NCBI GenBank assembly: GCA_951406725.2
Contig: OX597815.1
Location: 6,820,001-6,884,000 of the forward strand
Length of the DNA stretch: 64,000 nucleotides
Direction of reading: 5' to 3'
Source of the DNA: Octopus vulgaris
Lineage: Eukaryota
Translations under genes and position numbers: made by a program
Part shown: one piece after another, positions 691 to 63,205 of the stretch
How the letters are laid out: every line of letters starts with the position of its first letter
Position numbering within the stretch: the stretch's first letter is position 1
Notes under the pieces: model-generated
Seen by the model: the letters and a program-made list of their open reading frames with translations, nothing else
What the model was told of the DNA's origin: nothing
Database searches by the model: none

Positions 691-916
691 CTAACGAATA
701 TATATATATATATATATACATACATGCATGCAATAAGAATATGAAAAATATTCTTATTACCTGCTTTGGCTCAGTTTCATGAATATGATGAATCCTTATT
801 AGAAATCTCCTTTTCCCTCTTTTTGGATCCTCCCAAAAGTTGGAATTGCTCTTTTTGAACCTACTCTTTCTCAAATATACATACATGCATATATATACAT
901 ACATACATATATATAC

Positions 917-1580
917 ATCATCATCATCATCATCATCATCATTTAGCGTCCGTTTTCCATGCTAGCATGGGTTGGACGGTTCAACTGGGGTCTGGGAGCC
1001 CGAAGGCTGCACCAGGCCAGTCAGATCTGGCAGTGTTTCTACAGCTGGATGCCCTTCCTAACGCCAACCACTCCGAGAGTGTAGTGGGTGATTTTATGTG
1101 CCACCGACACAGGTGCCAGACGAGGCTGGCGAACGGCCACGCTCGGATGGTGTTTTTATGTGCCACCGACACAGGTGCCAGACGAGGCTGGCAGACGGCC
1201 ACGCTCGGATGGTGTTTTTATGTGCCACCGACACAGGTGCCAGATGAGGCTGGCAGGTGCCAGACGAGGCTGGCAGACGGCCACGCTCGGATGGTGTTTT
1301 TATGTGCCACCGACACAGGTGCCAGATGAGGCTGGCGGACGGCCACGATCGGATGGTGTTTGTTACGTCCCCAAAGCACGGAGGCCAGTCTATGCGGTAC
1401 TGGCTACGGCCACGTTCGGATGATTTTCTTGTGTGCCACCGGCACTGGTACCACAAAGATACAAATTCCATTTATGTTCATCTATTTTGATTTGTTTTGA
1501 TTTGATTTGATTTTCACTTGCCTCAACAGGTCTTCACAAGTGTCACAAGAAGGAAGGTATGCACAGGTGGACTGTCTACG
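917..1580 (-). mobile_element. SINE family C with (GAT)n tail and internal repeats of about 62 bp. Many copies in both orientations (e.g. 3420-3915, 4254-4670, 29664-30062, 35573-36420, 55585-55950, 62095-62407)
   Basis: Conserved ctacagctggatgcccttcctaacgccaaccactcc core and catcat tail. Confidence 0.85.
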
Positions 1581-1616
1581 TCGCCGGGTCTCCGGATGGT
1601 GTCTTTATGTGCCACC

Positions 1617-1660
<44 letters not shown>

Positions 1661-1729
1661 GGAGTAAACACATAAATGTGAAACAAGGTGGAAAAAAGAG
1701 TACTCAAATACCAGTGGTAGAGTAATATG

Positions 1730-2172
1730 CTTTATTTTAAGCAGCAGAAAAATCAACAAAATCTGTTACTCTGAGTTTCTCGTTGCCGTTCATCAGACAG
1801 TTTTTGCTAGAATGGAACATATATATTAATTCAATCTATACTCTTACAAACGCTACACCTTTAAAAAGAAATGGACTTGTTTGATTGGCCCTTTAGAAAA
1901 ACGGTCAATCTTCGAGCGATAAACAAAAAGGTCAAAAATATATGTATATATATATACATATATTTTTGACCTTTTTGTTTATCGCTCGAAGATTGACCGT
2001 TTTTTCTAAAGGGCCAATCAAACAAGTCCATTTCTTTTTAAAGGTGTAGCGTTTGTAAGAGTATAGATTGAATTAATATATATGTTCCATTCTAGCAAAA
2101 ACTGTCTGATGAACGGCAACGAGAAACTCTGAGTAACAGATTTTGTTGATTTTTCTGCTGCTTAAAATAAAG
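1730..2172. repeat. Near-perfect palindrome (fold-back) of about 440 bp with a hammerhead in each arm
   Basis: Arms are reverse complements around a (TA)n centre at about 1950. Confidence 0.9.
2097..2144 (+). ncRNA. Minimal type I hammerhead ribozyme motif
   Basis: aaaactgt-CTGATGA-a[cg gcaa cg]a-GAAA-ctc t gag-TA-acagatttt. A mirror copy lies on the - strand at 1758-1805. Confidence 0.7.
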
Positions 2173-2607
2173 TATATATATATATATATACATATATATA
2201 TTTATATACATATATATATATAAATATATATATATATGCACACGCACATACGTACACACACACGTCTGTCTTTGTGTCTGTTTTCCATCTCCGCTTGACA
2301 ACCAGCGTTGGTTTGTTTACATCCCGTAAGTTAGCGATTTGGCAAAAGAGACCGATGGAATAAGTATCAGTCTTTTAAAAAAAAGTACTGGGGTTGATTC
2401 ATTGGACTAAAATTCCTCAAGGTGGTGCCCCAGCATGGTCGCTGTCAAATGACTTAAACAACTAGAAGATAAAAGATGTCAATGTATCAGCTATAATACA
2501 GCGACACACAAAACACCGAATTGTCTTCTCAATGCTGTTGTTTGTTGCTGGGAATAGTAAAGCTGGAACGGTGTATGTCAGCTACTATTTCTGAAATGCC
2601 CGAGATA

Positions 2608-3128
2608 CTGTAAATCCTCGAGTATAGTCCGCCCTCGAGTATAATACGCAGTGGATTTTTAGGGGGCTTTACCTCTGAAAAACCTAAACCTTGTGTATAA
2701 TATGCACCCCTTCTCTAACTTGAGTTGTGCGTAATTAAGCCAGCAGCACCTGGTCGAACAAACATTTCCGTGCATGCGTAATACAATAATGGTGATGTTC
2801 TTAACTGTTATATGGGAATGTAAATATGTTTGCAAATTGGTTTGTTAGATGTTTTTCTGCGTTCTGAATACTTTTATTTAAACAAATGTTGCTTACTGCA
2901 AGTTATGGATGATTCTTTTATGACTTCATTGCTTTCAGGCTTAGCTTAAGGTATTTTCGCGCCCGACATCACAAAATGCGTCTGAATAAACATTGCTGGA
3001 AAGCAAATAGAGACTCGGACATTGCTTAGAAAATATTTTTCATTTTTAACCTCGTATATAGTACGCAGTAGGGATTTTGACCTTTAAATTTTTGGAAAAA
3101 TATGCGGATTATACTCGAGGATTTACAG
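2608..3128. mobile_element. Tc1/mariner (Tc2/pogo-like) MITE
   Basis: TIR ctgtaaatcctcgagtata / tatactcgaggatttacag with TA TSD. Confidence 0.8.
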
Positions 3129-4972
3129 TACTTAAGCTACCACTAGAACACCCTATACAAGGAGATGTCCATAAATAAGGTATAACAAAGGGAAACTGTT
3201 TATAAAGCTAAGCGTTTCATTCGTTTAATGAGTTGTCACTATCGTCACTTCCAGTTAATGTATTTTCCTTTTGCTTAATATCAAAACTGCAGGTTAATTA
3301 GGTCACAGAGCGTATTGGCCGATGGTCAGACAGGACATAATGTTCAGATAGATACGATGGTCATTCAAATGAAGTCTAAAAACTTCTGTGACAATTTTCA
3401 GAAAATAAAATCAAATTTGCTGACGTGGCCGATGACAGCACCACCTGACTGGCACCTGTACCAGTGGAACGTTAAAAACACCATCCTAGCGTGATCGTTG
3501 CCAAGGCCGTTGACTGGCTCCCATGCCGGCGGCACATAAAAAGCATCATTCGAGCGTGAACGTTGCTAGCGTCGCCTTACTGGCACTTGTGCCAGTGGCA
3601 TGTGAAAAACAACATTCGAGCAAGGTCGTTGCCAGTGCTGCTGGACTGGCTCCTGTGCAGATGGCACATAAAAAACACAATTTGAGCATGGCTGTCGCCA
3701 GTACCACCTGACTGGCCTTCATGCTGGTGGCACATAAAAGCACCCACTACACTTTCGGAGTGGTTGGCGTTAGGAAAGGCATCCAGCTGTAGAAACTCCG
3801 CCAGATCAGATTGGAGCCTGGTGCAGCCATCTGGCTTGCCAGTCCTCAGTCAAACTGTCCAACCCATACCAGTATGGAAAAAGGACGTTAAACGATGATG
3901 ATGATGATGATGATGGTGTTGGTGGTGGAGGTGGTGGTGGTGGTGGTGGTACTTTTTCTGTTACAAAACCTTTCCTTGTTGGCAAAAGCATGTATGAAAG
4001 GTTTAAGAGTTGTTTTACTTTGCACAACACTAAATTGACGTGTGAAACTCTCAGTGCTTACACAGAGGATGATGTTATCTAAAAGCAGTGAGCAAAATTA
4101 CTGATGAAAGTAGCCTATACACCAGAACTGGTGCACAAGGTTGATCACACTGGATTCTTCTGGAAGTTTATGATTGTTAGATAAACCAGAGCCCAACTTT
4201 AAAGCTTCTAGCAAACGCCCAACACTTCTAAGAGGAAATGCTGCTGTAGTGATCATCATCATCATCATCATCATCGTTTAACGTCCGTTCTCCATGCTAG
4301 CATGGGTTGGATGGTTCGACCGGGGATTTGGGAAGCCAGAAGGCTGCACCAGGCTCCAGTCTGATCTGGCAGTATTTCTACAGCTGGATGCCCTTCCTAA
4401 TGCCAACCACTCCGTGAGTGTAGTGGGTGCTTTTTACGTGCCATCTGCACAGGTGCCAGGCGAGGCTGGCATCGGCCACGGTCGGATTGGTGCATTTTAC
4501 GTGCCACCGGCACGGAAGCCAGTCGAGGCGGCACTGGCTTCGGCCACGATTCGGACGGTGCTTTTTACGTGCCACCGGCACGGAAGCCAGTCGAGGCGGC
4601 ACTGGCATCGGCCATGATTCGGATAGTGCTTTTTACGTACCACCAGTCCAGGGGTCCTGGCATCTGCCGGATGCCAGTCATAAGATTGGTTCAATTTCGA
4701 TTCCGATTTCGTGCCTGTCGTCGGATGAGGTTCGATATCGACTTCGCTTGCTTCAACAGGTCTTTGTGTGTTGATATAAAATTAAAGTCCTTACTTGTGC
4801 ATTACTCTCCAAATCTAAAGGTTTTCAAGGATTAGCCAATTTATCTGTGAATCAGCATTCAATTACAACATTTGGATGACTTCCAGCCTTTTTCAAGACT
4901 GGTTTACGAACCATTTTTTGTGTTTGCTCTTCTGTAGAGAGGTATTACACCAGGCAGAAACTCTCCAACATA

Positions 4973-5755
4973 AAGGCGGCGAGCTGGCAGAAGTGTTAGC
5001 ACTCCGAGCGAAATACTTAGCAGTATTTCGTCTACTGTTACGTTCTGAGTTCAAATTCCGCCGAGGTCGACATTGCCTTTTATCCTTTCGGGGTCGATTA
5101 AATAAGTACCAGTTACACACTGGGGTCGATATAATCGACTTAATCTGTTTATCTGTCCTTGTTTGTCCTCTCTGTGTTTAGCCCCTTGTGGGTAGTAAAG
5201 AAATAGGTATTTCGTCTGTCGTAACGTTCTTAGTTCAAATTCCGCCGAGGTTGACTTTGCCTTTCATCCTTTCGGGGTCGATAAATTAAGTACCAGTTAC
5301 GCACTGGGGGTCGATATAATCGAGTTAATCCATTTGTCTGTCCTTGTTTGTCCCCTCTGTATTTAGCCCCTTGTGGGTAGTAAAGAAATAGGTATTTCGT
5401 CTGTTGTTACGTTCTTAGTTCAAATTCCACTGAGGTCGACTTTGCCTTTCATCCTTTCGGGGTCGATAAATTAAGTACCAGTTACGCACTGGGGTCGATA
5501 TAATCAAGTTAATCCATTTGTCTGTCCTTGTTTGTCCCCTCTGTATTTAGCCCCTTGTGGGTAGTAAAGAAATAGGTATTTCGTCTGTCGTTACGTTCTG
5601 AGTTCAAATTCCACCGAGGTTGACTTTGCCTTTCATTCTTTTGGGGTCGATAAATTAAGTACCAGTTACGCATTGGGGTCGATGTAATTGACTTAATCCC
5701 TATGTCTGTCCTTGTTTGTCCCCTCTGAGTTTAGCTCCTTGTGGGCAATAAAGAA
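4973..5755 (+). mobile_element. SINE family B (Meta-domain-like) as a tandem array of about four units of about 185 bp. Other copies near 23538, 23770, 33090 (+), 40040, 47485, 47727, 50062 and 56253
   Basis: aggcggcgagctggcagaa..gttcaaattccgccgaggtcgactttgcctttcatcctttcggggtcgataaa. Confidence 0.85.
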
Positions 5756-6958
5756 AAAAGGAAAAAGAAACTTTCCAACAAAAGAGTAAAAGAGTAAAAG
5801 AGAGAGTAAAGAGTATTTATCGTTTTAGACAATTATGTAAGAGCGGAATATCTCCCCACCCCACAAAGTGATGCTGTGACAGGCAGATGAAAGCAATCTG
5901 GCTTTTATTAATAGTTTGGATTAATGGTGAAGTCTCCACCCGGCACTCTAATTGCGGAAGCCCTGAAGATCGCTAAGAATTCCACAAATTAATGGCCCAA
6001 AGAGAAAGGAAAAGGATGAATTTATGAATTCACTTATTTTACTTCTTTGTTAAGCTGCATCTAAACTTACTCTTTTACTTGTTTCAGTCATTTGACTTAT
6101 TCTATCGGTCTCTTTTTGCCGAACCGCTAAGTAACAGGGACATAAACACACCAGCATCATTTGTCAAGCGATGTTGGGGGGACAAACACAGACACACAAA
6201 CACACACACTTATATATATATATATATACATATATACGACGGGCTTCTTTCAGTTTCCGTCTACCAAATCCACTCACAAGGCTTTGGTCAGCCCAAGGCT
6301 ATAGTAGAAGACACTTGCCCAAGGTGTCACACAGTGAGACTGAACCCGGAACCATGTGGTTGATAAACAAGCTACTTACCACACAGCCACTCCTGCACCT
6401 ATTGTTAAACATCATGATAAAAGATGTGACAGGTAAAACTGTGGACATGGAAACAAATAACAAAGATTCCACAGGTCTGGTAAAGGTCTAGAAGGGTCAA
6501 GGGAACGTCATGAATGAGGAAGGTGCTAGGAAGCTTCAGTCTTGCAAGTGGAGGCAGTATTGGGGTGGGGTGATCTGGACAAGGTGAAATTAAAAGTGTC
6601 TGCAAGGACAAAAGAAAATCAAAAAGATTAGACCAGTTCAGGACAAGTACAAATAAGCAGGGCAAAAGATTTAGAAGAGAATTCACATTTAAAAATGAAA
6701 ACCTTAAAAAATCAAATACCCCAGGAAATTAAATAGCGGGGCCTATATTCTCCACAAAAGCAATGGGAATGCAAGAAAACACAGCCAAAGAACTCTTTGA
6801 CTCGAAGGGCATCATCAGTGAAGAGGACAGATGTCCAACAACCACCATCGCCACAAAAAAGCACAATTGTTCCCAGTTATGTTGGACAAGCTGCATGTTA
6901 CTGAATCAAAAGCTCACAGTAAACTCCAAGCAATATTTTTCTTTCAGTATGTAATTAT

Positions 6959-7460
6959 TGGAGGCACATAGCTTAGTGGTTAGGGTACTGGATTCATGAT
7001 TGTAAGATTGTGGTTTCGATTCCTGGACTGGTCAGCGTGTTGCATTCTTGAGCAAAACACTTCATCTCACATTACTCCAGTCCACTCAGCTGGGAAAAAT
7101 GAGTGATCCTGCGACAGACCGGCATCCCGTCCAAGTGGGGAATTTCTACATCACTGAAACTGGGAAACCGGCACTTATGAGCCTGGCAGGGATCAAGAAG
7201 GAACATTTAGTGGAGGCTTGTGGCATAGTGGTTAGGGTGTCAGCATCATGATAGTAAGATTGTGGTTTCGATTCCTGGACCGGGTGACGTGTTGTGTTCA
7301 TGAGCAAAACACTTCATTTCACGTTGCTCCAGTTCACTCAGCTGGCAAAAATGAGTAACGCTGCGATGGACTGGCATCCCGTCCAGGTGGGGAATATATA
7401 CGCCATTGAGACTAGGGAACCGGCCCCCATGAGTCTATATGACTCGGAAAGGAACTTTAC
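6959..7460 (+). mobile_element. Two tandem tRNA-derived SINEs (CORE/V-domain-like)
   Basis: A/B boxes tagtggttagg..ttcgattcc; ctgcgatggactggcatcccgtccagg. Confidence 0.7.
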
Positions 7461-7718
7461 TACTTTTATGTAATTATTGCCATTGTTATTTGTAAAAGAC
7501 CAACGCAGTTTCACTTCATGTTTAATATAAAATCTGTTGAATGATCGCGGATGTTGTTCACTTACTTCCACACACAACCAAGAGACATATTCTCATTCAT
7601 CAACCAACCACCACCACTACCACCACAGACCAGCCCAATAACCTTCAGACCGCGACAGGACCTACTGTCTGAATCTTTCGTTGACTAAGAAGTCTGTGGA
7701 GACAGAAAGATTTAAGAA

Positions 7719-8745
7719 TGTAGCGTATCTGATATCCTCACTGTTTGAGAATGATCTCGTTTGAGATTACAGCCATCTTTGGCTAGTTTGACCCTGTTGT
7801 GTCCACTGCTCTGATTGGTTGGCATCTAGCGTGGTCTGTCTCCCGACTTATTTCGCGCCAGTGTGTAAGTCAACCAATCACGGCCTTTAGATAAGGTCTC
7901 ATGACACTGTGTTTCAGATGCCCTTCTTTGAGCCATTTTAACCATTTAAAAAGGCCAGCTTTCATTATTTTCCATCTTTCGACTTAAGACCTTTTAAGGT
8001 CTAGTCACTGACCACAGAGCTACTCAGCCATGTTCCAGTTCCAGCGACAGACGACCAGCTTACCAGCCATGCTCCTGCTTCAGCTATGACAACAGGACGT
8101 TCTCCATCTCCGCCGCCATCATCACCATCATCGTCCTTCAGCTCTATGTCGTCTCCATCTCCGTCGACTTCAACAACATGTACACATCAACACCAACCAG
8201 GTTTAACTCACGCTGTTTGTGTGAATCTTTCACCGAGAAGAAACAGTCAGTCTATCTGAAAGAACTATCGATATCAAGAGACTTGGCACGGCATGATAGC
8301 CACAACTTCTACATGGGTAGTAACCGGCTCTGCCATGTGACCCTCAACATCTTGTTATAGAACTTACTATTGTGTACCTCATGAACTGGTAAACTAACTC
8401 TATCTTTACTCAATATGCTGAGACTTATCTTATGCTCTGTATTTCTGTTATATGCATTCACCTTATTTGTATCTGTCGCACACACAAACACATAGACACA
8501 AACACTTGTCACACGCATGCACACTCTCACATATGCTAGCACTCACATGCTTTCATTTTGTACACGTTGTAAATAAAGTCTTCTCTCTCAAACAGTAGAA
8601 CGGTTTGTTGTCCTTCATTTATTCCTTTGGCACTGTATTCTATATCATGTATACGGCATTCTTATTTTTGTTAGGGACGACCGTGCAGCGTTCAAAAGGG
8701 GACCTTTTGTCACCAACTCCTTACGTACCATCATCTAACCCTACA
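7719..8745 (+). mobile_element. Solo LTR (Gypsy-like)
   Basis: TGTAG...CTACA termini, 4-bp TSD AGAA/AGAA, AATAAA at about 8572. Confidence 0.75.
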
Positions 8746-9359
8746 AGAATTTGGAGAGGTTAAGACAACTCTGAGAATGGTTGACAGGATCACGATCAGT
8801 CGATCTGTTTGGCAAGATAATCAGTGAGTGTGCATATATGGTAGTGAGTCAGGTTGGTTGGTTGGTTGGGAGGGGAAGAATTTTGGAAGAGTTTTATGTT
8901 TATGTTTGTTGATTGGAAGCGAAACACACAACAGAAGCAACCTCTTCAGCAGCAGGTCTGTTACTTACAGAGCCATCTTCATTGGGAAGTGGTAGGCAGG
9001 AAATTCTGCAAAGTTAGTAGAGATCCTCTTGGCAATGATGCAGAAAAACAAGCTGCAATTTAGGATGTGTGAGTGTGTGTATGAGAGAGAGAGAAAGAGA
9101 GAGACAGACAGAGAGAAAGCTTAGTCTGTATGATACATGAAATCATTGCTGTTTTATTGATGGTTGTTTTGGATGCCATGAAGTTGGTAAATGCTTCTGG
9201 CCTTTAAGAATGAGCCGTTTTGAATAATCCTGTTACTTTCCATCCTGGATCCTGTCCATTCTACACAGCTGAAATTAAAAGAAATTGAATTCACTCTGGC
9301 GAGTCTGTTCTCTTAAGGAAGATCGTGATGTTTAGCCTTAGGTCAGCCCTGAACAAGTA

Positions 9360-9940
9360 GAACAAATACTATGCCTACGCAGACTCACTGAAGAATCAAA
9401 AGCATTTAATCACAATCTTGCAATGGTGTTTGTAGGCTTTTCTAAAGCGTTCGACTCTGTAGATAGGTACAAGATGTTTGAAATCCTTAAGCTCTATGGG
9501 ATTCCAGACAAAATCATCTCTGCCATCAAGGTCCTCTACACAGATACGTCTTCAACCATCTTAACACTTGATGGGGAAACATCATCTTTCTCAATCAAAG
9601 CCGGAATACTGCAGGGAGACACACTCACCCCATTTCTCTTCATCATTGTCGTTGACTATGTGCTACATATGTCAGTTGATACCATTTCTGGCAAGGGCTT
9701 TGAAATAAAGCCTAGAAGAAGTTCCAGACACCCAGCTGAGTACTTGACAGACACTGACTTTGCTGACGGCATCGCTCTTATCAATGATTCTCTCTCCAAT
9801 GCCCAGTCTCTTTTACAAGCCTCAAATTGGGTAGGTCTTTACCTCAATGAGTCCAAGACTGAATATGTAAACAAGTGCCTGTCCAACAGTGATTGCATCA
9901 TCCATTCTCTCAACAATACGCTCTTAAATAAAACAGATAA
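9360..9940 (+). mobile_element. LINE (RTE-like) reverse-transcriptase fragment
   Basis: FSKAFDSVDR..GILQGDTLTPFLF..DFADGIAL. Confidence 0.85.
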
Positions 9941-9984
9941 ACCATCAGATGATCCGTCACCAAACCTCGTATTTTATGATGATA

Positions 9985-10700
9985 CTAGATGTACCTGCCA
10001 TGACCCGTTGGATCACAACCACTCCAAGTTGAAATTGTCGATGTGCAGCAGGAAAGGAAACAAAACACTACTTCGAACTTTATGCAATAAAATTCTTTGC
10101 TGTGACACCATAAACATGACCAAGTGCTTCTTCGTTGAAAATGTTCAAATAGCCTTCAACTTTTTTCCTCGCTTTCTTCTTTGCCATTCTTTGTTGCTGC
10201 TGTTCCAAGTGAAATACACAGGTACTTCAGCATAAAGTAATGTCTTTGCAAAGTCATTATTGATGCACAATGAAAAGAATTCTGTCAATGTTGTTCTCAT
10301 CTGTTGTTCATTGACAGCCATATATATCCCCATAATTTCTGAGCAATAATCTTTATTCGTCTGGAAGATGAACTTGTAGTCTCACTATTGCAGGTGCTCT
10401 TTGATGAATTGAAAATCCTAAAATGGATGTAACTGCTTCGAATGGTCCAGTATACCTAGCCATTAGATACTGACTAATTTGGTTATCGTTGTTTATTTGA
10501 ACAGCTGCTTGGTCATTTCCTTTCAGTGTGTACTTGATGGCATACTTAACTGACCTCACTGAGGCAATGATTTCAATGTTGCAGTGGCATTTGAATGCTC
10601 TTAAAAGAGTTTCTTTATAAGGTGCAACCCATTTGTTGTTTGTTTTTCCAATCTTATGAGATTCAACTCCCTCCATTGCAACTGGTTGTCGTCTATAAAG
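9985..10700 (-). mobile_element. Decayed Helitron Rep/helicase fragment with 3' terminus
   Basis: HCNIEIIASVRSVKYAIKYTLKG..ARY..EA..ILGFSIHQRAPAIVRLQVHLP and TTLTEFF..LLYAEVPVYFTW. 3' hairpin tgatccaacgggtca followed by CTAG at 9985. Confidence 0.85.
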
Positions 10701-10816
10701 AGAGTCTCTCTGTCTGTGTTTCTGCTTTTTGATTAAGATAATGAAGATTAATATTTTGGAGATGTACTTGCATAGCAAGTGATTTGATCTGAGATCGTGT
10801 GCTGAAACGAAAACAA

Positions 10817-11056
10817 TTGCAGCGTGGAAGAAACATACAAAAGCCGTTCGATTCACTCAACATTTAAGTTTAATTTGTCAAAAATATTTTCGTCGCTAAA
10901 ATCTGCGACCTGTTCAGCACAGATTTTTGTCAGTGAACAGGTCGCGGATTTTTGCGCCGAAAATATTTTGACAAATTAAACTTAAATGTTGAAGTGAATC
11001 GAACGGCTTTTGTGTGTTTCTTAAATGGCTTACAAACACCTTCCACGCTGCAATTG
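10817..11056. repeat. Fold-back repeat; same family at about 62634-62882
   Basis: ttgcagcgtggaag...aacatttaagtttaatttgtcaaaaatatttt is mirrored on the other arm. Confidence 0.8.
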
Positions 11057-11760
11057 ATTAATATTTTATTTTAAATAAAATAGTAATTTTCCCTTTTAAG
11101 AAAAAAAAAATCAAGTACCCATGATTTAAAAATATAAAAATATAGGGAGAATTTTTCTTTCAAGTCCACAGCTCTCCAAATGATTGAGGAAAGAAATAAA
11201 GGACAGACAGCAGTAGCTGACATGACCCTTCAAAGTGTCGACATTTTCAGCTTGATTTTTTCTTATTCTTAAAGAGGGAAAATGACTATTTCATTCGTAA
11301 TCTTTAACATCTTAATCAAATGGCAGGAAAACAAACTTTGAGTTTTAGCATGATATAGATAGAAGATAAATGGAGTGTCTTGGACTACATTATTCAATGA
11401 ATTTGAGAAAGGTTTGATTGCTTTTTCTAGCGGCTAGAGCAATCATGTTGATGTCCTCTTTTTTATACGTCCTTGAGAGGATCTTTTTATCTGTCCCCAA
11501 TCTATTTCTTGTTTTCTGACGGACATAAATGAGAAAATTGTAGCCAAATTCTTTCAAATCACACAGGCAGAACTGTTAGCACGTCGGACAAAATACTTAG
11601 TAGTATTTTGTCCGTTTTTACATTCTGAGTTCAAATACTACCGAGGTCGACTTTGCCTTTGAGAGTCGATAACCAGTTGAGTACTGGAGTTGATGTAATC
11701 TTCCCCGAAATTGGTGACCTTCTACCAAAATTTGGAACACATTGGACAGTGCAGTTTACT

Positions 11761-16700: not shown

Positions 16701-19700
16701 AAAAAGCAGAATGAAATGAAAAATGTGAAAAATTTTCTGATAAAGACAAAAAAAGTTGTCTCTCTTGGTGCTGTGCCAGCTGTGGGTGAAGTGGGTCAGC
16801 TATGTCTGTGTACTAGTCTCTAGTTCAAAGAAAAAGGCCAACCACATTGCTAAAATAAATTTTCTCTCATGAGGGCAGCCACTGAAAATTTCACTTTTTG
16901 AGATCAAGACAGCACCCAGATAGTGTAAATTTTTTAGAATTATTTTCCTCTCAGCCAAGCAATGCTTGCACCAATTACTTCCATTCAGATCAGGTCATAT
17001 CTTATCATCGTCATCGTCATTTAACGTCCGCTTTCCGTTAAACGACAATGATGATGATGAGATATGACCTATGATGTCCCAGCAGTTTCCTGTTGAATTT
17101 GTCCAGTGTTCCTTTCTCTTTTAAGCACCATGTATCGCTGGTTAATGTTGTAAAATCATACCTCTCTTGGATTCTAAATGGTTTTGTGATCATTTTGACT
17201 GGCCTTAAAGGGAACCCTCTATTACCGCAATGTATTCTGTTGAGATATAGTGAAAACCTGAGCTGAAAGAAATGCTTTTATTACCATTAAGAATCTCAAA
17301 CCTGAGTGCTGCTTGATTAACCCAACTAAACTGGAGATTCACCTGGTGAGTAAACACATATTGAGGAAGATAAGCAATGATATAAGGAAGGAATCACATC
17401 TTTCCTTATAGTGTAACACTAGTGGAGTAGCCAGGATAGAAGCAAAGCAAGGCTCTTGCAGTTCAGTACAGTGGATTTCTATCTCTCCACAATGAAAGGG
17501 TTGTTAAAAAGGACACTTAATTACGATGGTGAGTTCAGTGATGTTAGTGATAGGAAAATAGAGCTAGTAAAGGCTGATGCCAGTATCCCCTGACTAGCTC
17601 CTGTGCCAGTGGCATGTAAAAAGTACCATCGGAACGTGATTGAGGCCAGGACTGCCTGACTCTTGGAGTGGTTGGCATTAGGAAAGGCATCCAGCTGTAG
17701 AAACGTTGCCAGATCAGAACCTGGTGCAGCCTCCTGGCTTGTCAGTCCCCAGTCAAACTGTGCAAACCATAAACGATGATGATGGATGCATGCCAGAAAA
17801 ACCTTGCAGTTCAACAAGGCTTTGGCCTCAATCAGATGAACAGGCCTCAAAAGCTCCTTTGATGTGAAGATGGGAGATGTCTTATGTGCGATCTATTAGG
17901 CTTATTTATACTTGACATTTGCTGGTGAACCAAACAAGAGCTGGCAAGTGACCTACTCTGCTATGGTTGCAAAGCATGGCCATACTTGAGCAGGTTGTGC
18001 AAACATAATGTATGTAGTTCAATTCGCTAGAGACACTGGATGCCTCCATGAAGACCTCCGGGATCTTTTCGGTTTGAACGGCAGTTTTTTAAAATAATTT
18101 CTATGTAACTAAACACTTTTAAACTTCGTATACTGGTAGAATGTGTTTATAAAACATCTTTTTCTCTTGGATTTCTTGAGAAAATTCTATAGTTTGTAAG
18201 ATATTTGTAAGATATTTTCTTCAATTTTGGCAATTTCAACCAATCAGTGATGTCTATTGAGGTGAAAACATTATCTGCTGTAAAATTTTCTGGCAGTGAA
18301 ATATGAAAATGACCCTCGTTTAAGAAACAGATTGGGTTTATTTACATTTCTGAAGAAAAAAAGATACCCTTCCCCCTACCCTTAACCCTAACCCTAAAAC
18401 AGATTGAAATGCAATAGATCGATACTAGGGCCATAATTATGGGTGGACACTAAAGAGGGAACGGTTTTGTTATCCAGCTCTGTTTACAAGTGACCCCTCA
18501 GTTTATGGCCACAGGGTACCTTTTTTTCTCATAAATAACAGGGACAATTTCATATGACATCGGAAATAAATGTTGACACACTACGGCAGAAATCGTTTTC
18601 TCCTCAATAGACGTCATTGATTGGTTGAAATTGCTGAAATGCAAGAAATTAAAGACCAAATATCTTACAAACTATAGAATTTTCTCAAGAAAGCCAAGAG
18701 AAAAAGATGTTTTATAAACACATTCTACCAGTATACGAAGTTAAAAATTTTTTTAGTCACATAGAAATTATTTTAAAAAACTGCCGTTCAAACCAAAAAG
18801 ATCCGACCTCCGTCTTCTAATGTAAGATTGAAATGAATGGCGTGTGCAGGTTCAAAATGTCTGAGAAAGCCCAACCAGATGATGGTGGTACTTGACACTT
18901 AAGTAAGAAATTCCTGCCAACCCTTTTTGTCCTATATTGAGAATACTCTTTAGCCATCTCAAGTGGCTTGAACAGGCATAGCCTTAAGAAAGATCTGACC
19001 CCTTGGACTAACAGTAACCATAGAGACCAACCTTACCGTAGTAAATTTCTTAGATGCAATGCTCAATTTGGGTATTGGTTCATACAGGCCCCACAGCAAA
19101 TCTTATGAGAGGCCTTTGTATCTTGGTAAGTTTGTGAGGCAGCCATGGCTCTTTGCAGCCCTCTAAGATTGGTAGAGAAAAGAAAGACCTTGATAGTCTT
19201 CAACTGGAAACATAATGGAAATGTTTGCAACTGAAGAGACCTGGGTAAAGGTACTTGAGAGGCGTTAAAATGGTTGGCAGATTAACTTCAGTCCATTCAA
19301 GAATTTTCTCTATAGTTACTATTTAGCCATTTTCACTCACAAGGTTTTGTGTTGACTCATTGCTATAGTTAAAGGAAATTGCTCAAGGAGTGAACCATAT
19401 TATTATGAAGCAAAATTCTTGAGCATGAGGATATATTGGTTGAAATAACAATTGCTAGAAATGTACTTGTTCAAGAAAAAAAATCTTTGTATTTCTCAAA
19501 CTTGTGAAAGTAATTTTTTTTTTTCAGGGTTGCAAACCCCAAAGCTTAATGTGGATGAATGGTTTCAACCTTTGTGTGAGAGTACCACAAAAAGTTTCGG
19601 CTTAGTAGCGAATTCAGTGAAAGATTTAACAGACAATGTGTTATTTCTTAGGTCTGTGGCCACTACTTTTTATTAGAAGCCTTCATCATCATCATTGTTT

Positions 19701-22664
19701 AACGTTTTCTTTCCATGCTGGCATGGGTTGGATGGTTTGAGTGAGGACTGGCAAGTCAGTAAGCTGCACCAGGCTCCAATCTGATCTGGCAAGGTTTCTA
19801 CAGCTGGTTGCCCTTCCAACCATTCTGAGAGTGTAGTGGGTGCTTTTAATGTGCCACCGGCATGGGGGCACCGACCAGCACTGGCATCAACCACACTCGA
19901 ATGGTGCTTTTTACATGCCACTAGCATGGGAGCCAGAAGTAGTTTTAGAACTGGGAACTTCTATATTTTCATGGGTTGGTTTTCATTAAAGAATCTGTCA
20001 AAGAATTATGGGACAAGTTCCAAATCTGGAAGAGTGGTGAAGAATTAGCAACAAAAAGCCTGAACAATCTAGGCAGTAGCCTTGCTCAATACTTGGAAGA
20101 AATCCACTCGGAAACTTTATATTGTGTATTTGGAAGAAATAGTGGGTGCTCAAAAGTTGTGATGGGCTGGCAGATACAGAGAGAGAAACCAGGAATGTAA
20201 ATGAACAGGAATGCTGAGCATTGCGGATACTCCCAAAAATAAAGATCAAGAATTGTCCAGATGGAAGATATTCAGAGAGTAGGCTGATCAAAATGTAAAA
20301 TGGAACTATACCAAGTGTGGTATATATATATATATATATATATGTAATCAAAAATAAGCAACAAGAATGAATTCGGTAATTTAGTACAATTGTTTCATAC
20401 TACAACATTTTATTAAAGGCTGTAAATATTACAGCAGATTTAAGCTAATTTTATATAGGTTTTCCAATAATATAAAGTTCTCAGATCAATTAATAACATC
20501 TTAGGGAAGGTAAATATACAGATAAAGATGTAGATATGAATCTCAGGAACATGAGGTAGTGTAGTTAGGATGCCAACCTGACCAAAACTTTGCTCACAAC
20601 TGACTGTTGTTAGAAAATTTCCCTAGTTATAAGAATGGGGGTAAGGGCAGGTTAAGAAATCAAGTTAGTCAAGCTAGAAGAAAAGAAGGGGAAAAAATTC
20701 AGGAGATGTAAAAGACTAACAGATTGTCACTAGAACAAAGGGTCAATCTATTTATGTGGTGACAAAAGATTTAGGTCAGTGTAGAAGAAACACTAAATTC
20801 TTAGGAGACTATGAGGTAGGAGGTCAGCTACTAAACTGACCAACCCTTACTTTCATCTGAAAGCCATCAGAATTTTTAGTAAGAATTTAGGTAAGGGGAT
20901 GTGAAAAAAAGCTGTAAAAGGGGTTTAAGTTAGAGAAAATACATGAAAGGAATTCAAGGTTATCACTAGAGTATATATATATTTACTCATTCCTTCTATC
21001 ATAAAATGAAATGGTTTAGGTTTTGTTTAAAATAAGTTTATAGGTTAATAATTATATTAATTGAAAATATTTGACTTATATTTACTATACAAAATGGCCA
21101 CCCTTTGCTTTCACCGTAGCCCTTCATCTTTTCTCAGCTGAAGTGCAGGACATTGGGGGAAATATATATATCCAAACGTCATTGATTCCAGGCCCACCTG
21201 ACTGGCTCCTGTGCTGGTGGCACTTAAAAATCACTCACTACACTCTCAGAGTGGTTGGCATTACGAAGGGCATCCAGCTGTAGAAACATTGCCAGATCAG
21301 ATTGGAGCCTGGTGCTGCCACTGGCTTTCCAGACCTCTTTCAAACTGTCCAACCCATGCCAGCATGGAAAAACGGACGTTAAATGATGACGATGATGATG
21401 ATGTTGCACCCAGTTGTAGATGAGGTTAACAATATAGAAATCTTTAACTCCATGTTTTCATCATTGTTTTTATACTTTTCCAACCTTATATGGGTTGACA
21501 GAATTCATTGAGAGATTTCTATGGCTGGATGCCATTCTTATCACCAGTCTTCATTTATTCTCAAGTAAGGTAATATTTTCCCTAGTCCAAGCATGTTTCC
21601 ACAGAAAACTGGAAGCGAATAACATTACTTGTATAATGGTGGCACTCACTTGCAACTGTCACATAATGTCAAGACATTGAACATCCAGCAGAGCATGCTG
21701 GCCTCATTCCTCCCTAGCCTTTGCATGTCCTCTGCATTTAGGCCCATATTTCTCAACCATGTAGAATTGCTGTTTGTATGCATGCATCATATGGTCTTCC
21801 TTTCACTAGAGAATAAGTATGTATTTATATGTGTATATATACATATATGTGTGTATGTACAATATTTACATTTGACGGATATTTGTCCTCATCTTGTTTG
21901 TTGTCAACACAGCGTTTCAGCTGATATACCCTCTAGCCTTCATCAGGTGTCTTGGGGAAATTTCGAACCTGGGTTCTCATTCCTAAGGTATTTTTCAATG
22001 TTATTATTATTCAGATCACTGCCTGGAATCGAACTTTGAATCTTGTGGTTAGTAGCCCACGCTCTTAACCACTATGCCATATGCCTGTGGTTTTTTTCTT
22101 CTTCAGAGCTTTCTAGATGTCGGCTACTTACATTAACTACTGCTTTCACAGGTGGGTGACAGACTTTAGTCTTCATTCGCTGACCTTTGAGTTTCATAAG
22201 CTTCATAATCTGGTGTGTCTTCACTATTTCAAATAATAACATCGAAAAATACCTTAGGAATGAGAACCCAGGTTCAAAATTTCCCCAAGACACCTGATGA
22301 AGGCTGGAGAGTATATCAGCCGAAACGTGTTAACAACAAACAAGATGAGGACAAATATCCGTCAAAAGTAAATAATTCCACATCTCTTAGACATCGGACT
22401 GTATGTGTATACATATGTACATAGTCTGTATATATATATTGATTAAACCTCGCCAAGTTAAATATTTAAACCACCTGAAGAATGACTGTAACTCGAAATT
22501 TTAAGAATTAGACAGCCATGAAACAATCGTAGTGTTATATTAATTATCTTTTTTAATAATTTTGATATATATTTAAATAATATAAATTAATTAATCTTAT
22601 GTATTGGCTTAAGTTTTTCATTGTATGATTTGCCTAATAGTGGTTTTATCTCTAATTTAATATA

Positions 22665-25600: not shown

Positions 25601-28600
25601 ACATTCCTAGATGCAGGTGTGGGCTTGGATCAGTCTCACTACATGTTACCTTGGGCAGGTGTCATCTACTCTAGCCAAAGCCTTATGAGAGGATTTGGTA
25701 CAGGGAAACTGAAAGAAGCCTATCATGCATATCCTTACTTTGACATCCTGTGATAATTAGAAATGAGAATCACCAACATACGAGGGACGTTGTGCCTTTC
25801 TTGTCTTCCATGGTGAAATATTACCTGGCTTGGAAACAAGTGAGTGTTGGCAACAGGAAGGGAATCCAGCTGTAAAAATCTACATCAGCAAATTCCATCT
25901 AACCCATGCAGACATGGGAAAATGGATGTTGAATGATGGTGATTGTTCTGTATGCTGGTATGACATTTCTAGTTATTAGATACAATTTAGGCCCTGTATG
26001 TTTAGAAATGCATGGCATACTCTAATGGGTTAAAATATGAGCTTGTAGTTGCTAAAGACAGGTTAAAGATAATATTACATCATCCCTTCTCCAATGTCAA
26101 TTGAACAAGAATGAATTTATTTTTAAAGGCTTAATCACAGGAGGAAGGGAGGTGCTTGCAGGCTGAGATTTCTGGGAGGAAATTATCCCTAAACTGGTGA
26201 CTCTGCCCAAATGTTACTAAAGACACCCAAGGCCCAGATGGTGGTTTTGTTAAACTAGCTCCTGCAATTAAGTCTCCTCCCATCTAAGAATTAAAAAAAC
26301 AAAACAAAAAAACCCCAGCAAAAATATGTAAAAAGAAGAAAAAAAGAATATATATTGCAAAGCAATTTTGAAAATATTGTTCATTCTCAGTATCTCCAAC
26401 AAGCTAGTTCATGCTGTCAGCAACTCTAGTGTTTGTTCTGTGACTCACAGACACACTCTGCTGCTGGGTGCTTTTTTTCTAGTCTCATATTTCATGTCAT
26501 CCTTGCATAAAATAGTTGAAGTGGATTCATTAGTCTGTCTGTTGTACAAAGAATCTGTTGATGTTGAATTAGACGGAGAAGGGTGTCGAGTTACACAAAA
26601 GTTAGGAATACAAAGAATTTTTATAAATTTTTGTTCAGTAAAATATACACAAAAGTTTTTCCTAATGCCATCCTCTTGTCTAAAATGTGAGTTACCATAT
26701 AGCAAGAAACCTGTTCCGCTCTGGCCCATCCCCTCGTAATTTAGCCTCTCATCTCCTTGCATAAAGACACCTCTCTCAAAGTATGTGGTGTTGCAAGCTG
26801 CATGGTAACCCCACTAATGCTGGTGGCACAAAGGGGGGGGGGAGACCACCTAGTAAACATTGTAAAGTGGTTGGCATTAAGAAGGACCCATCTAGCTGTA
26901 GAAGCTGAAGTGTAAAGGGCTTCAAGGAAGTCTCTTACCCTTCTTAGCAAACAACTCCGAAAAAGATACCCTCTACCCTACCCGTTGGTCTGTAGATAGA
27001 ATACTCCAGGACTCATACTTGTGCACATCTGTTCCCAGTGACTGCCTATGCAAAAAAAGGTTTGGAGTAAAGATAATTTGCAAACATAACATGGCAGTCC
27101 TGGTTTAGGACTGATGTTGCTGTAATTTAGCCCCAGGACACATCGTCTCCAGCTGGCTATATGACATGATCTGTGTTCTTATATTTTCAAACAAAAAAAG
27201 AAAAATAAGGACACAGATTGTGTCATATAGCCAGCTGGAGACAATGTCTCTTGGGGCTAAATTACAGCAACATTCATCCTAAACTAGGACTGCCATGTTA
27301 TGTTGACAAACAATCTTTATTCCAAAGTACTGTTACTGAATATCCCTCGTTGTGAGATTTAAAAATAGTAATTTTCTAAAGAAAGTTTTGCTCAAATCAC
27401 CTGTTTTGTCAGGTGGTGCATTGTGTCTTTGAGCAAGACACTTTATTTCATGTTGCTCCAGTCTGCTCAGCTGGCAAAAATGAGTTGTACATGAAATTCA
27501 AAGGGCCAGCCTTGTCACATACAGTATTATGTTGAATAATCATCATCATCATCGTTTAATGTCCATTTTCCATGCTGGCATGGGTTGGATGGTTTAACTG
27601 AAGTCTGGTAAAGCCAGTGGCTGCACCAGGCTCCAATTTGATCTGGCAATGTTTCTACAGCTGGCTGCCCTTCCTGCCTTGCCCAAGGACACAACACACC
27701 ACCTAGGCCAGAAATTGAATTCATGAACTTATGGCTATGAGCCCAGCACTTTAATCAATGTGATATTAGTTGAATAAGTTTTTCTGTAGTTGATGTTTAG
27801 CCCCAGGTCAGCCTTGACCACCTAGGCTATGACCAAAGCTGTTCCTGCTGTAACTATCCCGTCTTTTATTTTCAGACACAGTTTATCAAGGACTGCATTG
27901 GCCAAATGCAGATGGTTGTGTGTGATTTGGGGGAAATTTGGCTACTATTTCTACCAGGTCAAGCAACCAAGCAGAGGCTTTTTTGTAGACTTGTTCTTTA
28001 GTTGCATGTCAATTTTGTCATTAAGCAGTCATCTCTTTACTCTTTTACTTGTTTCAGTCATTTGACTGCGGCCATGCTGGAGCACCGCCTTTAAGTCGAG
28101 CAAATCGACTCTAGGACTTATTCTTTGTAAGCCTAGTACTTATTCTATCGGTCTCTTTTGCCGTACCGCTAAGTTGTAGCGACGTAAACACACCAGCATC
28201 AGTTGTCAAGCGATGGGGGGAAGAAACAGACACACAAGCATACATATACATATATATGACGGACTTCTTTCAGTTTCCGTCTACCAGATTCACTCACAAG
28301 GCTTTGGTCGGCCCGAGGCTATAGTAGAAGACACTTGCCCAAGGTGCCACGCAGTGGAACTGAACCCAGAACCATGTGTTTGGTAAACAGGCTACTTACC
28401 ACACAGCCACTCCTACGCCTATTTTTATGCTGTGACTTTTTTCTTTTTTTTTTCTGTCAGACAGGTAGGCAGAGGGTAACATGCATACTCTCTCTCTCTC
28501 TTTTACTCTTTTACTTGTTTCAGTCATTTGAATGCAGCCATGCTGGAGCACCGCCTTTAGTCGAGCAAATCGACCCCGGGACTTATTCTTTGTAAGCCTA

Positions 28601-37600: not shown

Positions 37601-37748
37601 TGGCATGGATTGGACTGTTTGACCGGGACTGGTAAACTGGAAGGCTGCACCAGACTCCAGTCTCATTTGGCATGGCTTTCTATGGCTGGATGCCCTTCCT
37701 ATAGTATATTTTAATTGTTACATTGTGGGAGTTTTGGTAAAAGATTAT

Positions 37749-45469: not shown

Positions 45470-45803
45470 AAGGTACAAAATGCAAAAATAATTTTATAAA
45501 AAACATTTCCGTACCGGTTTCAGTCATTGAGACTTTTTCAACTGTAAGTATGGAAAACAAATTTTGGAAAAATTAAAAGAAAAGTTTTTTTTTAAAAGAA
45601 TATTTGTATAGTATTCAAATACAAGGGGCATTTTCCTTGTTTCTGCCTGTCTCTGTCTCTTGTATTTGAATACTATGCAAATATTCTTTTAAAAACTTTA
45701 CTTTTAATTTTTCCAAAATTCAATTGTTTTCCATACTTACAGTTGAAAAAGTCTCAATGACTGAAACCGGTTTTTATAAAACTATTTTAGCATTTTCTAC
45801 CTT
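45470..45803. repeat. Fold-back repeat with a hammerhead-like motif in each arm
   Basis: accggtttcagtcattgagactttttcaactgtaagtatggaaaacaa is mirrored at 45723-45771. Confidence 0.8.
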
Positions 45804-60899: not shown

Positions 60900-62633
60900 C
60901 ATATATACGACGGGCTTCTTTCAGTTTCAGTTTGGTCAGCCCGGGGCTATAGTAGAAGACACTTGCCCAAGGTGCCACGCAGTGGGACTGAACCCAGAAC
61001 CACTCCTGCACCTACATTGTGTAACTTTTTTTTATTGTACTTTATACGCACCTTTGACAAGTTGTGATGTACCTGAGGACTGCATACAACAAATTCATTA
61101 TTATTATTATTATTATTTAATTTCTAGTGGAAGTGGGGCGGGATGAATGCAAGTTTCGTCTCCAGCTTTCAAAACTACATTTAAAAAATTATTCTAGAGA
61201 AAATACTTGAAATTTAACAATATCCATTGTTGTATCTGTTTCGTATATAATTGGTGCCAATTAAAATTAACCCATAAGAACAGTAATGCACACTTGATAA
61301 ATTAATTAAACTATGATGCCGAGAAATGACAACATTAATATACAATAATAACCTTATCTTCACTACAGAATGCAGCAAAAACAACCCATCAGTTTCACCG
61401 ATCTTGATAAACGTTTCAAGAAGAAACGTACAGAATACATCAGTGCAAATAACGATAGTAACAAAAGGGGAAAAACACGATAAAACATTAAACTACATAA
61501 AGACACCATCGCTGCCTGTTTGAATTTTGTTAGTGTCACATCAATAGCCACGAGAAATAAGGGTTTTCTGTCTCATCTGCAATAACAATGTTGTTAAACA
61601 TCTGTTTATTCGTTTCCTTCATCCAGGATAGCCAGATTATTTATTTCTGTATATATCTCGTTACTGTTGGTTTCATTCTAATTAACGACGCTATAATCAA
61701 TGATTACCTCTTCTTTTTTTCCCTTCAACTTTCATCTGTCCACTTTGAATTTATCTCATTACACTGGTCAACAAAATACAACTTTCATTTTCTGGCATAA
61801 AATCTTAGAGTTGTACTAGACTTGTGTGTGTTTATGAGCGAAACACCTAAGCTCCATGCGGCTCCGGCAGAAGGTAATGGCGAACTTCTGCTGACTCTTT
61901 CGCCACAACTTTCTCTCACCCTTTCCTCCTGCATCTTGCAGCTCACCTGTGACGGACCGGCGTCCCGTCCAGGTGGGGAACCTATACACCAAGGAAACCG
62001 GGAAACTGGCCCTTATGAGCCAAGCATGGCTCAAGAAGGAACAAGCAACTGTTCCTTCTAAAGGATGAAACAATAAGATGACCAGAATGAATGACCACGT
62101 GCTGGTGGCACGTAAAAAGCACCATCCGAACGTGGCCAATGCCAGCGCCGCCTTGACTGGCGTCCGTGTCGGTGACACGCAAAAAGCACCAACCGATCGT
62201 GGCCGTTGCCAGCCTCCCCCGTGCCGGTGGCACGTAAAAAGCACCCACTACACTCACGGAGTGGTTGGTGTTAGGAAGGGCATCCAGCTGTAGAAACATT
62301 GCCAGATTAGACTGGAGCCTTGTGCAGCCTCCCGGCTTCCCAGACCCCGGTCGAACCGTCCAATCCATGCCAGCATGGAAAACGGACTTTAAACATGATG
62401 ATGATGATTTTGTTATCACCAAGCTTAATTCTTACATGCTAATGTGCATTTTTTACTCCCATAGCTTTGTGTTTTGATTTATTAGATTAAAAAATGACAT
62501 ACTGTCTATTAAAAATTGCATCTACGTATGTTTAATTCTTCCATTATCTCAAAAATCTGATGTGATAGACAAAATCTGATGCCAGATTTAAGATTCAGCA
62601 CCCAAAAATTAGCTAAAAACCATTGATAAATAA

Positions 62634-62882
62634 ATTGCAGTGTGGAAGGTGTTTATAAGCCATTTAAAAACATGCAAAAACCGTTAGATTCACTTCAACA
62701 TTTAAATTTAATTTGTGTCTCAAAACGACGAAAATATTTTGACACAAATTAAATTTAAATGTTGAAGTGAATCTAACGGTTTTTGTGTTTTTAAATGGCT
62801 TACAAACACCTTCCACGCTGCAATTGTTTTCGTTCCAGCACACGATCTCAGATCAGGTCACATGCTATGCAAGTACATCTCC
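62634..62882. repeat. Fold-back repeat, same family as 10757-11056
   Basis: Inverted arms; shares gcacacgatctcagatca...gctatgcaagtacatctcc with the 10.8 kb copy. Confidence 0.78.

Positions 62883-63165: not shown

Positions 63166-63205
<40 letters not shown>

What the first reader, a model, noticed from the sequence alone, without database searches (positions are those of the whole stretch)
10817..11056. Second core variant GUGAACA (G3-C8) in a palindromic repeat family
Seen: tgtca-GTGAACA-g gtcgc ggattttt gcgcc-GAAA-atat-TT-tgaca at about 10928-10973. The mirror arm has gcgac, which completes stem II. The same family at 62634-62882 retains cgacGAAAatattttgaca. G3-C8 is the exact inversion of the canonical C3-G8 pair. 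Together with the U3-A8 cases this looks like natural covariation of a catalytic-core tertiary pair (inference).
Basis: partly seen in the sequence, partly recalled or inferred. Interest (0 to 1): 0.72.

Follow-up and report, generated by a model that had tools for sequence, protein, structure and literature searches.

The report
Octopus retroelement hammerhead, swapped core pair
A Penelope-type jumping-gene family of octopuses carries a hammerhead-shaped RNA motif in which two paired core letters are swapped (G3-C8 instead of the usual C3-G8) as the family norm; it likely still cuts itself weakly when two copies pair up, which is untested, and the usual search pattern would miss it.

Summary
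The motif is present at the stated bases (G3 = 10933, C8 = 10938, predicted cut after 10968) and is not chance: 2 descriptor hits in the window against 0.03 per shuffle. The 'palindrome' is an insertion of a Penelope-like retroelement end (pLTR). It has two inverted arms, a 56-nt tail on one arm and an 11-12 bp target duplication. It also holds the first 29 codons of an ORF that named Octopus proteins link to a Penelope-type reverse transcriptase. G3-C8 is the family norm, not decay: in four sequencing runs under four organism labels (774 to 11,596 contigs laid) no other letter reaches 3% at either position. A second subfamily with a different loop II shows the same core. This copy itself is probably dead: one stem II pair is broken and the arms fold onto each other. 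Engineered G3-C8 is known to rescue cleavage in part, and natural U3-A8 is published; I found no published natural G3-C8, but key papers were unreadable. No within-family covariation was seen and cleavage is untested. Verdict: new variant of a known kind, moderate interest.

The parts
10746..10757 (.). Left target-site duplication (11-12 bp, A+T-rich)
   Evidence: Same 12 letters at 11056-11067
10758..10813 (-). 56-nt 'tail', present on one arm only; encodes about codons 11-29 of the element's ORF
   Evidence: the same tail ends at the same base in the second copy (62827-62882)
10814..10916 (-). Inverted pLTR arm, cut off at core position U4, with a deletion of about 20 nt that removes the ATG; intact stem II, one extra T near the cut site
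   Evidence: junction placed by contigs whose likeness starts at about 10915 (tables 2, 5, 7)
10915..11056 (+). pLTR arm without tail, holding the complete hammerhead motif and ORF codons 1-10
10926..10975 (+). Minimal type I hammerhead motif: stem I 10926-32/10969-75, stem II 10941-45/10954-58, palindromic helix III 10962-67, predicted cut after U17 (10968)
   Evidence: cut site inferred from the standard hammerhead numbering
10933..10939 (+). Variant core strand with G3 (10933) and C8 (10938)
   Evidence: no other letter at 3% or more at either base in 4 of 4 runs
10953..10957 (+). Two letters private to this copy: 10953 (loop II) and 10957 (breaks the second pair of stem II); the family majority has A at both
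   Evidence: table 3: A in 97.8-99.9% of depth at both places in all four runs
11025..11056 (+). Start of the Penelope-type ORF (codons 1-10)
   Evidence: 10 of 10 residues identical to the N-terminus of P0001
11056..11067 (.). Right target-site duplication
62632..62882 (+). Second insertion of the family (second subfamily); inverted short arm 62632-62719, long arm from loop II through the tail, ORF codons 1-29 at 62795-62881; flanked by 12-bp repeats with one mismatch (62620-31, 62881-92)

Best explanation
The stretch is an inverted, truncated end (pLTR) of an octopus Penelope-like retroelement, and its hammerhead-shaped motif has G3-C8 as the family norm; the family motif likely self-cleaves slowly after U17 as a dimer, possibly with help from the element's protein, while this genomic copy is likely inactive. 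Shown: the letters, the target duplication, the one-sided tail, the ORF start matching named Octopus proteins whose longer relative has Penelope RT motifs, and the fixation of G3 and C8 among laid contigs. Inferred for the insertion: the element's protein nicked both strands of an A+T-rich target and started reverse transcription at two internal sites of the RNA, after ORF codon 10 and after codon 29. The two cDNAs met head to head and were joined at a 2-nt overlap, which gave the palindrome. Inferred for the ribozyme: two motifs in a tandem transcript pair through the self-complementary helix III, and G3-C8 takes the place of the C3-G8 tertiary pair that positions the 2'-OH of residue 8. U at position 17 avoids the G3-C17 pair that would trap the fold.
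For: Descriptor 2 hits vs 0.033 per shuffle. Stem I pairs form with probability 0.77-0.81 in the isolated arm. Laid contigs: 774, 11,596, 4,496 and 2,736 in runs of organisms A, B, C, D; 11 variant rows at 3% or more, none at 10933 or 10938; the majority restores stem II; loose-end consensuses of a second subfamily with a different loop II show the same core strand in 2 of the 4 runs (X2, X11), while X1's is too short to reach G3 and X9's differs at that distal end. Six opposite-strand joints join about 10912-10922 to variable points 10958-11013, as expected for variably truncated inverted arms (table 5). Peptide at 62795-62881 is 26 of 29 identical to the N-terminus of P0001 (O. sinensis); P0002 (O. 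bimaculoides) 88% over 25; P0001 74-223 is 79% identical to P0004 (O. vulgaris). P0004 has DKS, YGLRKDHK, RP and DVVSLYPSI motifs and maps in the ESM Atlas (feature score 0.97) to DUF8422 clusters that also carry RVT_1, HTH_animal and GIY-YIG. Literature: min-HHRs with palindromic helix III sit in pLTRs and cleave weakly only as multimers (PMC4209133); an inverted 5'-truncated copy and a one-sided tail are typical of PLEs (PMC8557442); PAc extends both strands from two internal sites that bound the tail, and its C3G/G8C double mutant partly restores cleavage (PMC11167929). Other inverted elements in the window carry C3-G8 or U3-A8 cores.
Against: No cleavage data. No compensatory change inside the family; core and stems are not demonstrably more conserved than the downstream pLTR (hand-entered counts 0 of 41 vs 3 of 81, p = 0.55). 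Many copies run through the cut site to about 10915, and none of the 6 listed inversion joints lies at 10968/9, so the templates were often uncut RNA; in PAc, cleavage was dispensable for insertion in vitro. The nearest-neighbour model does not favour the double hammerhead for this copy (-15.4 vs -33.1 kcal/mol for the cofold minimum; closing helix III costs 1.8 kcal/mol) and slips stem II by one base (G10.1-C11.1 probability 0.01) and extends stem I with G3.U17 (0.56); this copy has the broken stem II, and I did not fold the majority sequence. The 3% test covers mainly the first subfamily; the second is seen only through loose-end consensuses with agreement about 0.7. G at position 9a is rare (1 of 44 rows read). 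Pfam as held here found no RT or GIY-YIG domain in P0001-P0004; no full-length element or GIY-YIG domain of this family was seen.
Confidence: 0.7

Rival explanations
1. Same retroelement, but the motif is a hammerhead relic that no longer cuts; the fold is kept for another job (protein binding, promoter or splice signal) or simply copied from a master element in which the swap was fixed by chance.
For: Copies commonly extend through the cut site and no listed joint marks it; PAc insertion does not need cleavage (PMC11167929); both single-step intermediates of the swap are inactive in PAc, so the lineage passed through a dead state or changed both letters at once; conservation of the core does not exceed that of the rest of the pLTR.
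Against: All other core letters are canonical and the two changed ones pair; loop II changed between subfamilies while core and stems did not (hand-entered 4 of 9 vs 0 of 41, p = 0.0005); the engineered swap is active in part in a PLE hammerhead.
Confidence: 0.24
2. G3-C8 is decay of one copy or an artefact of the inversion junction.
For: The mirror arm reads C at position 3; this copy has two private changes in stem/loop II.
Against: No other letter at 3% or more at 10933 or 10938 in 4 of 4 runs; the mirror C lies beyond the junction; the second subfamily has the same core.
Confidence: 0.03
3. The palindrome is a miniature inverted-repeat DNA transposon (or a hairpin-RNA gene) and the hammerhead likeness is chance.
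For: Long inverted arms and a target duplication; the insertion folds as one hairpin of -164 kcal/mol; weak miRNA-family hits in Rfam, all under their gathering scores.
Against: One-sided tail, variable inversion joints, ORF start tied to a Penelope-type RT protein, descriptor rarity.
Confidence: 0.03

Closest known systems
Minimal type I hammerheads (min-HHR) in pLTRs of metazoan Penelope-like elements (Cervera and de la Pena 2014, PMC4209133)
   Same: Place in the pLTR, type I order, extra base after A9, G10.1-C11.1, palindromic helix III for dimer formation, short stem I, most copies as lone truncated ends, some as opposite-strand pairs.
   Different: G3-C8 core. In the 44 alignment rows I read (supplement 2, part 2 of 3) 41 have C3-G8, 2 U3-A8, 1 U3.G8, none G3; no cephalopod row. 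Their descriptors fixed these letters, so they could not have found it.
Natural U3-A8 core variants (Perreault et al. 2011, PMC3088659; Schistosoma Cercyon PLEs, PMC4209133)
   Same: A compensated change of the 3-8 tertiary pair in nature.
   Different: U3-A8 is two transitions with a U.G wobble as intermediate; G3-C8 needs two transversions with unpaired intermediates (my inference).
Engineered C3G/G8C double mutant (PAc Poseidon element of Anolis, PMC11167929; citing Martick and Scott 2006, not read) and engineered G3-C8 in PMC3884650
   Same: Same letters at 3 and 8; partial rescue of cleavage; in PAc also a PLE hammerhead upstream of a tail defined by two RT start sites inside the ORF.
   Different: Laboratory mutants of C3-G8 ribozymes; here the swap is the natural, amplified state, with U17 rather than C17.
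Penelope-like elements with C-terminal GIY-YIG endonuclease (Penelope/Poseidon, Neptune, Nematis; PMC8557442)
   Same: pLTR overlapping the ORF start, inverted truncated arm, one-sided tail, RT motifs alignable by eye to PENELOPE in the paper's supplement.
   Different: Tail 56 nt rather than 30-40; DKS in place of DKG; clade not determined; six short strings of this element were not found in that paper's supplement.

Membership tests
Hammerhead ribozyme (type I, minimal/dimeric) | Core strand U4 G5 A6 N7 .. A9 and G12 A13 A14 | tested here: met
   10934-10939, 10959-10961
Hammerhead ribozyme (type I, minimal/dimeric) | Canonical letters C3 and G8 | tested here: not met
   G3 and C8; the letters differ, the pair is kept
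Hammerhead ribozyme (type I, minimal/dimeric) | Watson-Crick complementarity of 3 and 8 | tested here: met
   G-C in the copy and in the family majority; actual pairing in 3D not tested
Hammerhead ribozyme (type I, minimal/dimeric) | A15.1-U16.1 and H17 | tested here: met
   10962/10967 and U at 10968
Hammerhead ribozyme (type I, minimal/dimeric) | Stems I and II, with G10.1-C11.1 | tested here: met
   Stem I 7 bp; stem II 5 bp in the family majority and the mirror arm, 4 of 5 in this copy
Hammerhead ribozyme (type I, minimal/dimeric) | Self-complementary helix III allowing a dimer | tested here: inconclusive
   The 6 nt are a perfect palindrome, but all A-U; the energy model does not favour the double hammerhead for this copy
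Hammerhead ribozyme (type I, minimal/dimeric) | Compensatory changes in the stems among relatives | tested here: inconclusive
   Stems invariant in the majority of both subfamilies; only loop II changes
Hammerhead ribozyme (type I, minimal/dimeric) | Site-specific self-cleavage | not testable with these tools
   Needs an in vitro assay or raw RNA-end reads; only contigs were offered
Rfam hammerhead families | Score at or above the gathering threshold | tested here: not met
   the window's canonical C3-G8 minimal motifs were not hit either
Penelope-like element | pLTR with inverted 5'-truncated copy | tested here: met
Penelope-like element | Tail at one end only | tested here: met
   56 nt in 2 of 2 copies
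Penelope-like element | Penelope-type reverse transcriptase ORF | tested here: met
   Indirect chain: window peptide - P0001 - P0004 with RT motifs through motif A; Atlas clusters with RVT_1. Pfam scan of P0004 itself was blank
Penelope-like element | GIY-YIG endonuclease in the same ORF | tested here: inconclusive
   Retrieved proteins end before it; only look-alike Atlas clusters carry it
Miniature inverted-repeat DNA transposon | Symmetric terminal inverted repeats with a fixed interior | tested here: not met
   One-sided tail and variable central joints

The most novel reading that the evidence does not exclude
This is the first described natural hammerhead in an animal with the catalytic 3-8 pair fully inverted, fixed in a very abundant retroelement family shared by several octopus species and catalytically active. 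The lineage would have crossed an inactive intermediate and regained the pair, which would show that selection acts on cleavage in Penelope elements even though insertion in vitro does not need it, and that ribozyme censuses built on the CUGANGA pattern miss whole families.
Probability: 0.45. Interest if true: 0.65.

Novelty: new variant of a known kind. Interest (0 to 1): 0.5.

Why it matters
The role of hammerheads in Penelope elements is open (PMC7761336, PMC8557442, PMC11167929). A family that amplified with the tertiary pair inverted but intact is a natural version of the classic rescue mutant and an argument that the active fold is under selection. It gives a simple test set from one genome window: C3-G8, U3-A8 and G3-C8 motifs in similar elements. 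It also means descriptors that fix C3 and G8 undercount these ribozymes, which bears on reports that some PLE clades lack them. The chemistry itself would not surprise a specialist, since the engineered swap is known to work in part.

Tried and rejected
No genome is held for this window, so no copy-by-copy alignment or covariation count was possible. Two scans of metagenome contigs (0 and 4 loci) and one of viral contigs (11 loci) gave 15 loci; none matched the element beyond the seed by more than a few bases, all taken as chance. Rfam: nothing at gathering score; miRNA-family hits reflect the long hairpin. A search for full-length proteins with the N-terminal 205 residues of P0001 found none among 642 candidates; the Atlas gave nothing usable for that part; no solved structure matched P0004. 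The methyltransferase domain in P0001 (residues about 243-310) is not shared with P0003/P0004 and is read as a gene-model fusion. tblastn found no other ORF remnant of the family in the window. The published Hydra-1 element of O. bimaculoides has a different, canonical hammerhead. A relaxed descriptor added two weak hits (50791 +, 54879 -) that I rejected as chance. Summed contig depth was not used as a copy number. The Fisher tests use counts I entered by hand and are rough. Papers not held: Lunse et al., Hammann et al. 2012, and two ids given from recall for Seehafer et al. 2011 and Arkhipova et al. 2017.

Full report
Observation. In hammerhead numbering on the + strand: stem I 10926-10932 with 10969-10975 (7 bp), G3 at 10933, C8 at 10938, A9 at 10939, an extra G at 10940, stem II 10941-10945 with 10954-10958, GAA 10959-10961, a self-complementary 6-nt helix III 10962-10967, U17 at 10968. 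A descriptor that leaves positions 3, 7 and 8 free found 2 hits on both strands of the window, this one and a U3-A8 motif at 44122 (-), against 0.033 hits per window in 60 dinucleotide shuffles and no G3-C8 hit in any of them. Stem I is not a by-product of the large palindrome, whose centre lies near 10921. Plain folding of 10922-10980 gives stems I and II but a modest z-score of -1.56. Rfam has no hammerhead hit.

The carrier. The palindrome (10814-11056) is part of an insertion 10758-11056 flanked by an 11-12 bp duplication (10746-10757, 11056-11067). One arm stops at 11056; the other runs on for a 56-nt tail. The second copy, 62632-62882, has the same two ends in the opposite orientation, its own 12-bp duplication with one mismatch, and a different central junction. 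An ATG at 11025 and 62795 opens a frame that runs to the end of the tail. This peptide is 26 of 29 identical to the N-terminus of P0001, an uncharacterised Octopus sinensis protein, and 88% over 25 residues to P0002 of O. bimaculoides. P0001 residues 74-223 are 79% identical to P0004 of O. vulgaris. P0004 carries DKS, YGLRKDHK, RP and DVVSLYPSI motifs that line up by eye with the PENELOPE RT rows in the supplement of PMC8557442; naming the last as RT motif A is from my own knowledge. The ESM Atlas places P0004 (feature score 0.97) with eukaryotic DUF8422 clusters, several of which also carry RVT_1, HTH_animal and GIY-YIG. The Pfam copy held here found nothing significant in P0002-P0004, and no full-length protein was retrieved. 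In both copies the short arm ends after about codon 10 and the long arm after codon 29. This matches the PAc element, where both target strands are extended from two internal RT start sites inside the ORF that bound the tail (PMC11167929, main text read in full), and the general PLE pattern of an inverted truncated copy and a one-sided tail (PMC8557442, passages). That the window is from an octopus is inferred from these named proteins.

Is G3-C8 the family state? No genome is held, so I laid contigs of 4 of the 24 runs listed on 10910-11060 at 80% likeness with a 3% reporting floor: 774, 11,596, 4,496 and 2,736 contigs from organisms A, B, C and D (4 samples at most, 3 studies). Eleven variant rows were listed; none is at 10933 or 10938, where summed depth is about 700-1,000 (X1), 0.9-1.1 million (X2), 170,000-220,000 (X9) and 76,000-85,000 (X11). 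At 10953 and 10957 the majority letter is A in 97.8-99.9% of depth, which restores a perfect 5-bp stem II; this copy's letters are private. A second subfamily, to which the 62-kb copy belongs by three linked downstream letters and its loop II, does not align across loop II. Its loose-end consensuses show the same core strand in X2 (38 contigs, agreement 0.72) and X11 (38 and 21 contigs, 0.68 and 0.73); X1's (3 contigs) starts at position 7 and shows C8 only; X9's (20 contigs, 0.67) shows U4 replaced and no G3 at its distal end, and a further X11 consensus (10 contigs, 0.65) is degraded. Limits: differences near contig ends are not counted, contigs drop rare variants, 347 loose ends were not shown, and depth is no copy number. 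Likeness begins at about 10915 in many contigs, and 6 opposite-strand joints link 10912-10922 to points from 10958 to 11013. So the + arm is the longer pLTR piece, the mirror arm stops at U4 with a 2-nt overlap, and its apparent C3 is a junction letter.

Mechanism. For the family I favour a slow, dimer-type and perhaps protein-assisted ribozyme. PLE min-HHRs were inactive as monomers and weakly active as dimers or trimers (PMC4209133, parts 1-2 of 4 read). In PAc, C3G and G8C each abolish cleavage, the double mutant partly restores it, and cleavage needed the protein. PMC3884650 (passages) says an engineered G3-C8 variant is more active with G17 than with C17 (data not shown there), which fits a G3-C17 trap; this family has U17, although the energy model still gives G3.U17 a probability of 0.56. 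Against activity: the model does not favour the double hammerhead for this copy (-15.4 vs -33.1 kcal/mol) and shifts stem II by one base; copies often run through the cut site; none of the 6 joints marks it; and PAc insertion did not need cleavage. This copy is probably inactive in any case: stem II is broken and a read-through transcript folds into one hairpin of -164 kcal/mol.

Covariation. Within the family positions 3 and 8 do not vary, so there is no compensatory change to count. Loop II differs between subfamilies while core and stems do not (rough hand count 4 of 9 vs 0 of 41, p = 0.0005), but the core is not more conserved than the downstream pLTR (3 of 81 vs 0 of 41, p = 0.55). Across other inverted elements in the window there are C3-G8 cores (21946 -, 22294 +, 63347 +; and 2106 + with its mirror), U3-A8 at 44122 (-) and a U3-A8 candidate at 45541 (-)/45743 (+) with poor stem I; of these only 44122 passed the strict descriptor. 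These families cannot be aligned to each other, so they show variation across a structural class.

Novelty. Natural U3-A8 is in print (PMC3088659, section 8 read; PMC4209133). In 44 rows of the PLE alignment in the supplement of PMC4209133 (part 2 of 3) none has G3. Eight literature searches gave one listed paper with the string G3-C8, about an engineered variant (30 of 37 listed), and none with G3C8 plus hammerhead. Passages were also checked in PMC6765202, PMC11014351, PMC10085705, PMC6155905, PMC7761336, PMC7936874, PMC12192606 and bioRxiv 10.64898/2026.07.22.740005, and part 1 of 2 of PMC2920678, with no natural G3-C8 case. Lunse et al. 2017, Hammann et al. 2012, Seehafer et al. 2011 and Arkhipova et al. 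2017 could not be read, figures are not held, one supplement file of PMC4209133 was not searchable and bioRxiv supplements are closed; a prior report there cannot be excluded. Earlier notes of this scan list G3-C8 candidates in phages and, with an inserted base, behind protist Penelope-like RTs; these are unchecked leads, but they suggest the swap recurs. What sets this case apart is a clean core without insertion, fixed in an abundant animal family seen under four organism labels.

Verdict. Observation confirmed; interpretation partly supported; new variant of a known kind; interest 0.5.

Noticed in passing
window 43994-44188, core at 44122 (-): Inverted-arm element with a minimal hammerhead that has U3-A8, a G after A9 and a 4-nt palindromic helix III; passes the strict descriptor.
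   Followed up: partly
window 45470-45803, cores at 45541 (-) and 45743 (+): Palindromic element with a U3-A8 core on both arms, 4-bp stem II and a 6-nt G+C palindrome for helix III, but weak stem I; candidate only.
   Followed up: partly
window 21863-22374 and 63119-63392: Two insertions of one family with canonical C3-G8 minimal hammerheads (21946 -, 22294 +, 63347 +); unrelated DNA lies between the arms.
   Followed up: partly
window 1725-2177: Near-perfect (98.7%) palindrome around a TA microsatellite with a C3-G8 hammerhead on each arm (2106 +); stems I and III resemble a sequence seen in the Hydra-clade part of the PMC8557442 supplement.
   Followed up: partly
window 62717-62719: The short arm of the second copy stops one base from the predicted cut site (at G1.2), with a 3-nt overlap to loop II of the other arm; one case only, may be chance.
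   Followed up: partly
window about 10915: Many contigs begin their likeness here with mixed flanks that share about 5 further letters (34 contigs in X2, 29 in X9): a preferred 5' boundary about 20 nt before G3, perhaps a transcription start or splice site. Unexplained.
   Followed up: no
P0001 (Octopus sinensis LOC115227545): Gene model that joins this element's ORF start to a methyltransferase domain; probably a prediction artefact, possibly an exonised element.
   Followed up: partly
window 18061-18804, 27061-27326, 58808-59050, 37418-37701: Further inverted-repeat elements without a recognisable hammerhead core.
   Followed up: no
window 33667-34200, 35672-36175, and dispersed families D6-D20: Short-period tandem arrays (9-12 nt and 63 nt) and several abundant SINE-like dispersed repeats.
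   Followed up: no
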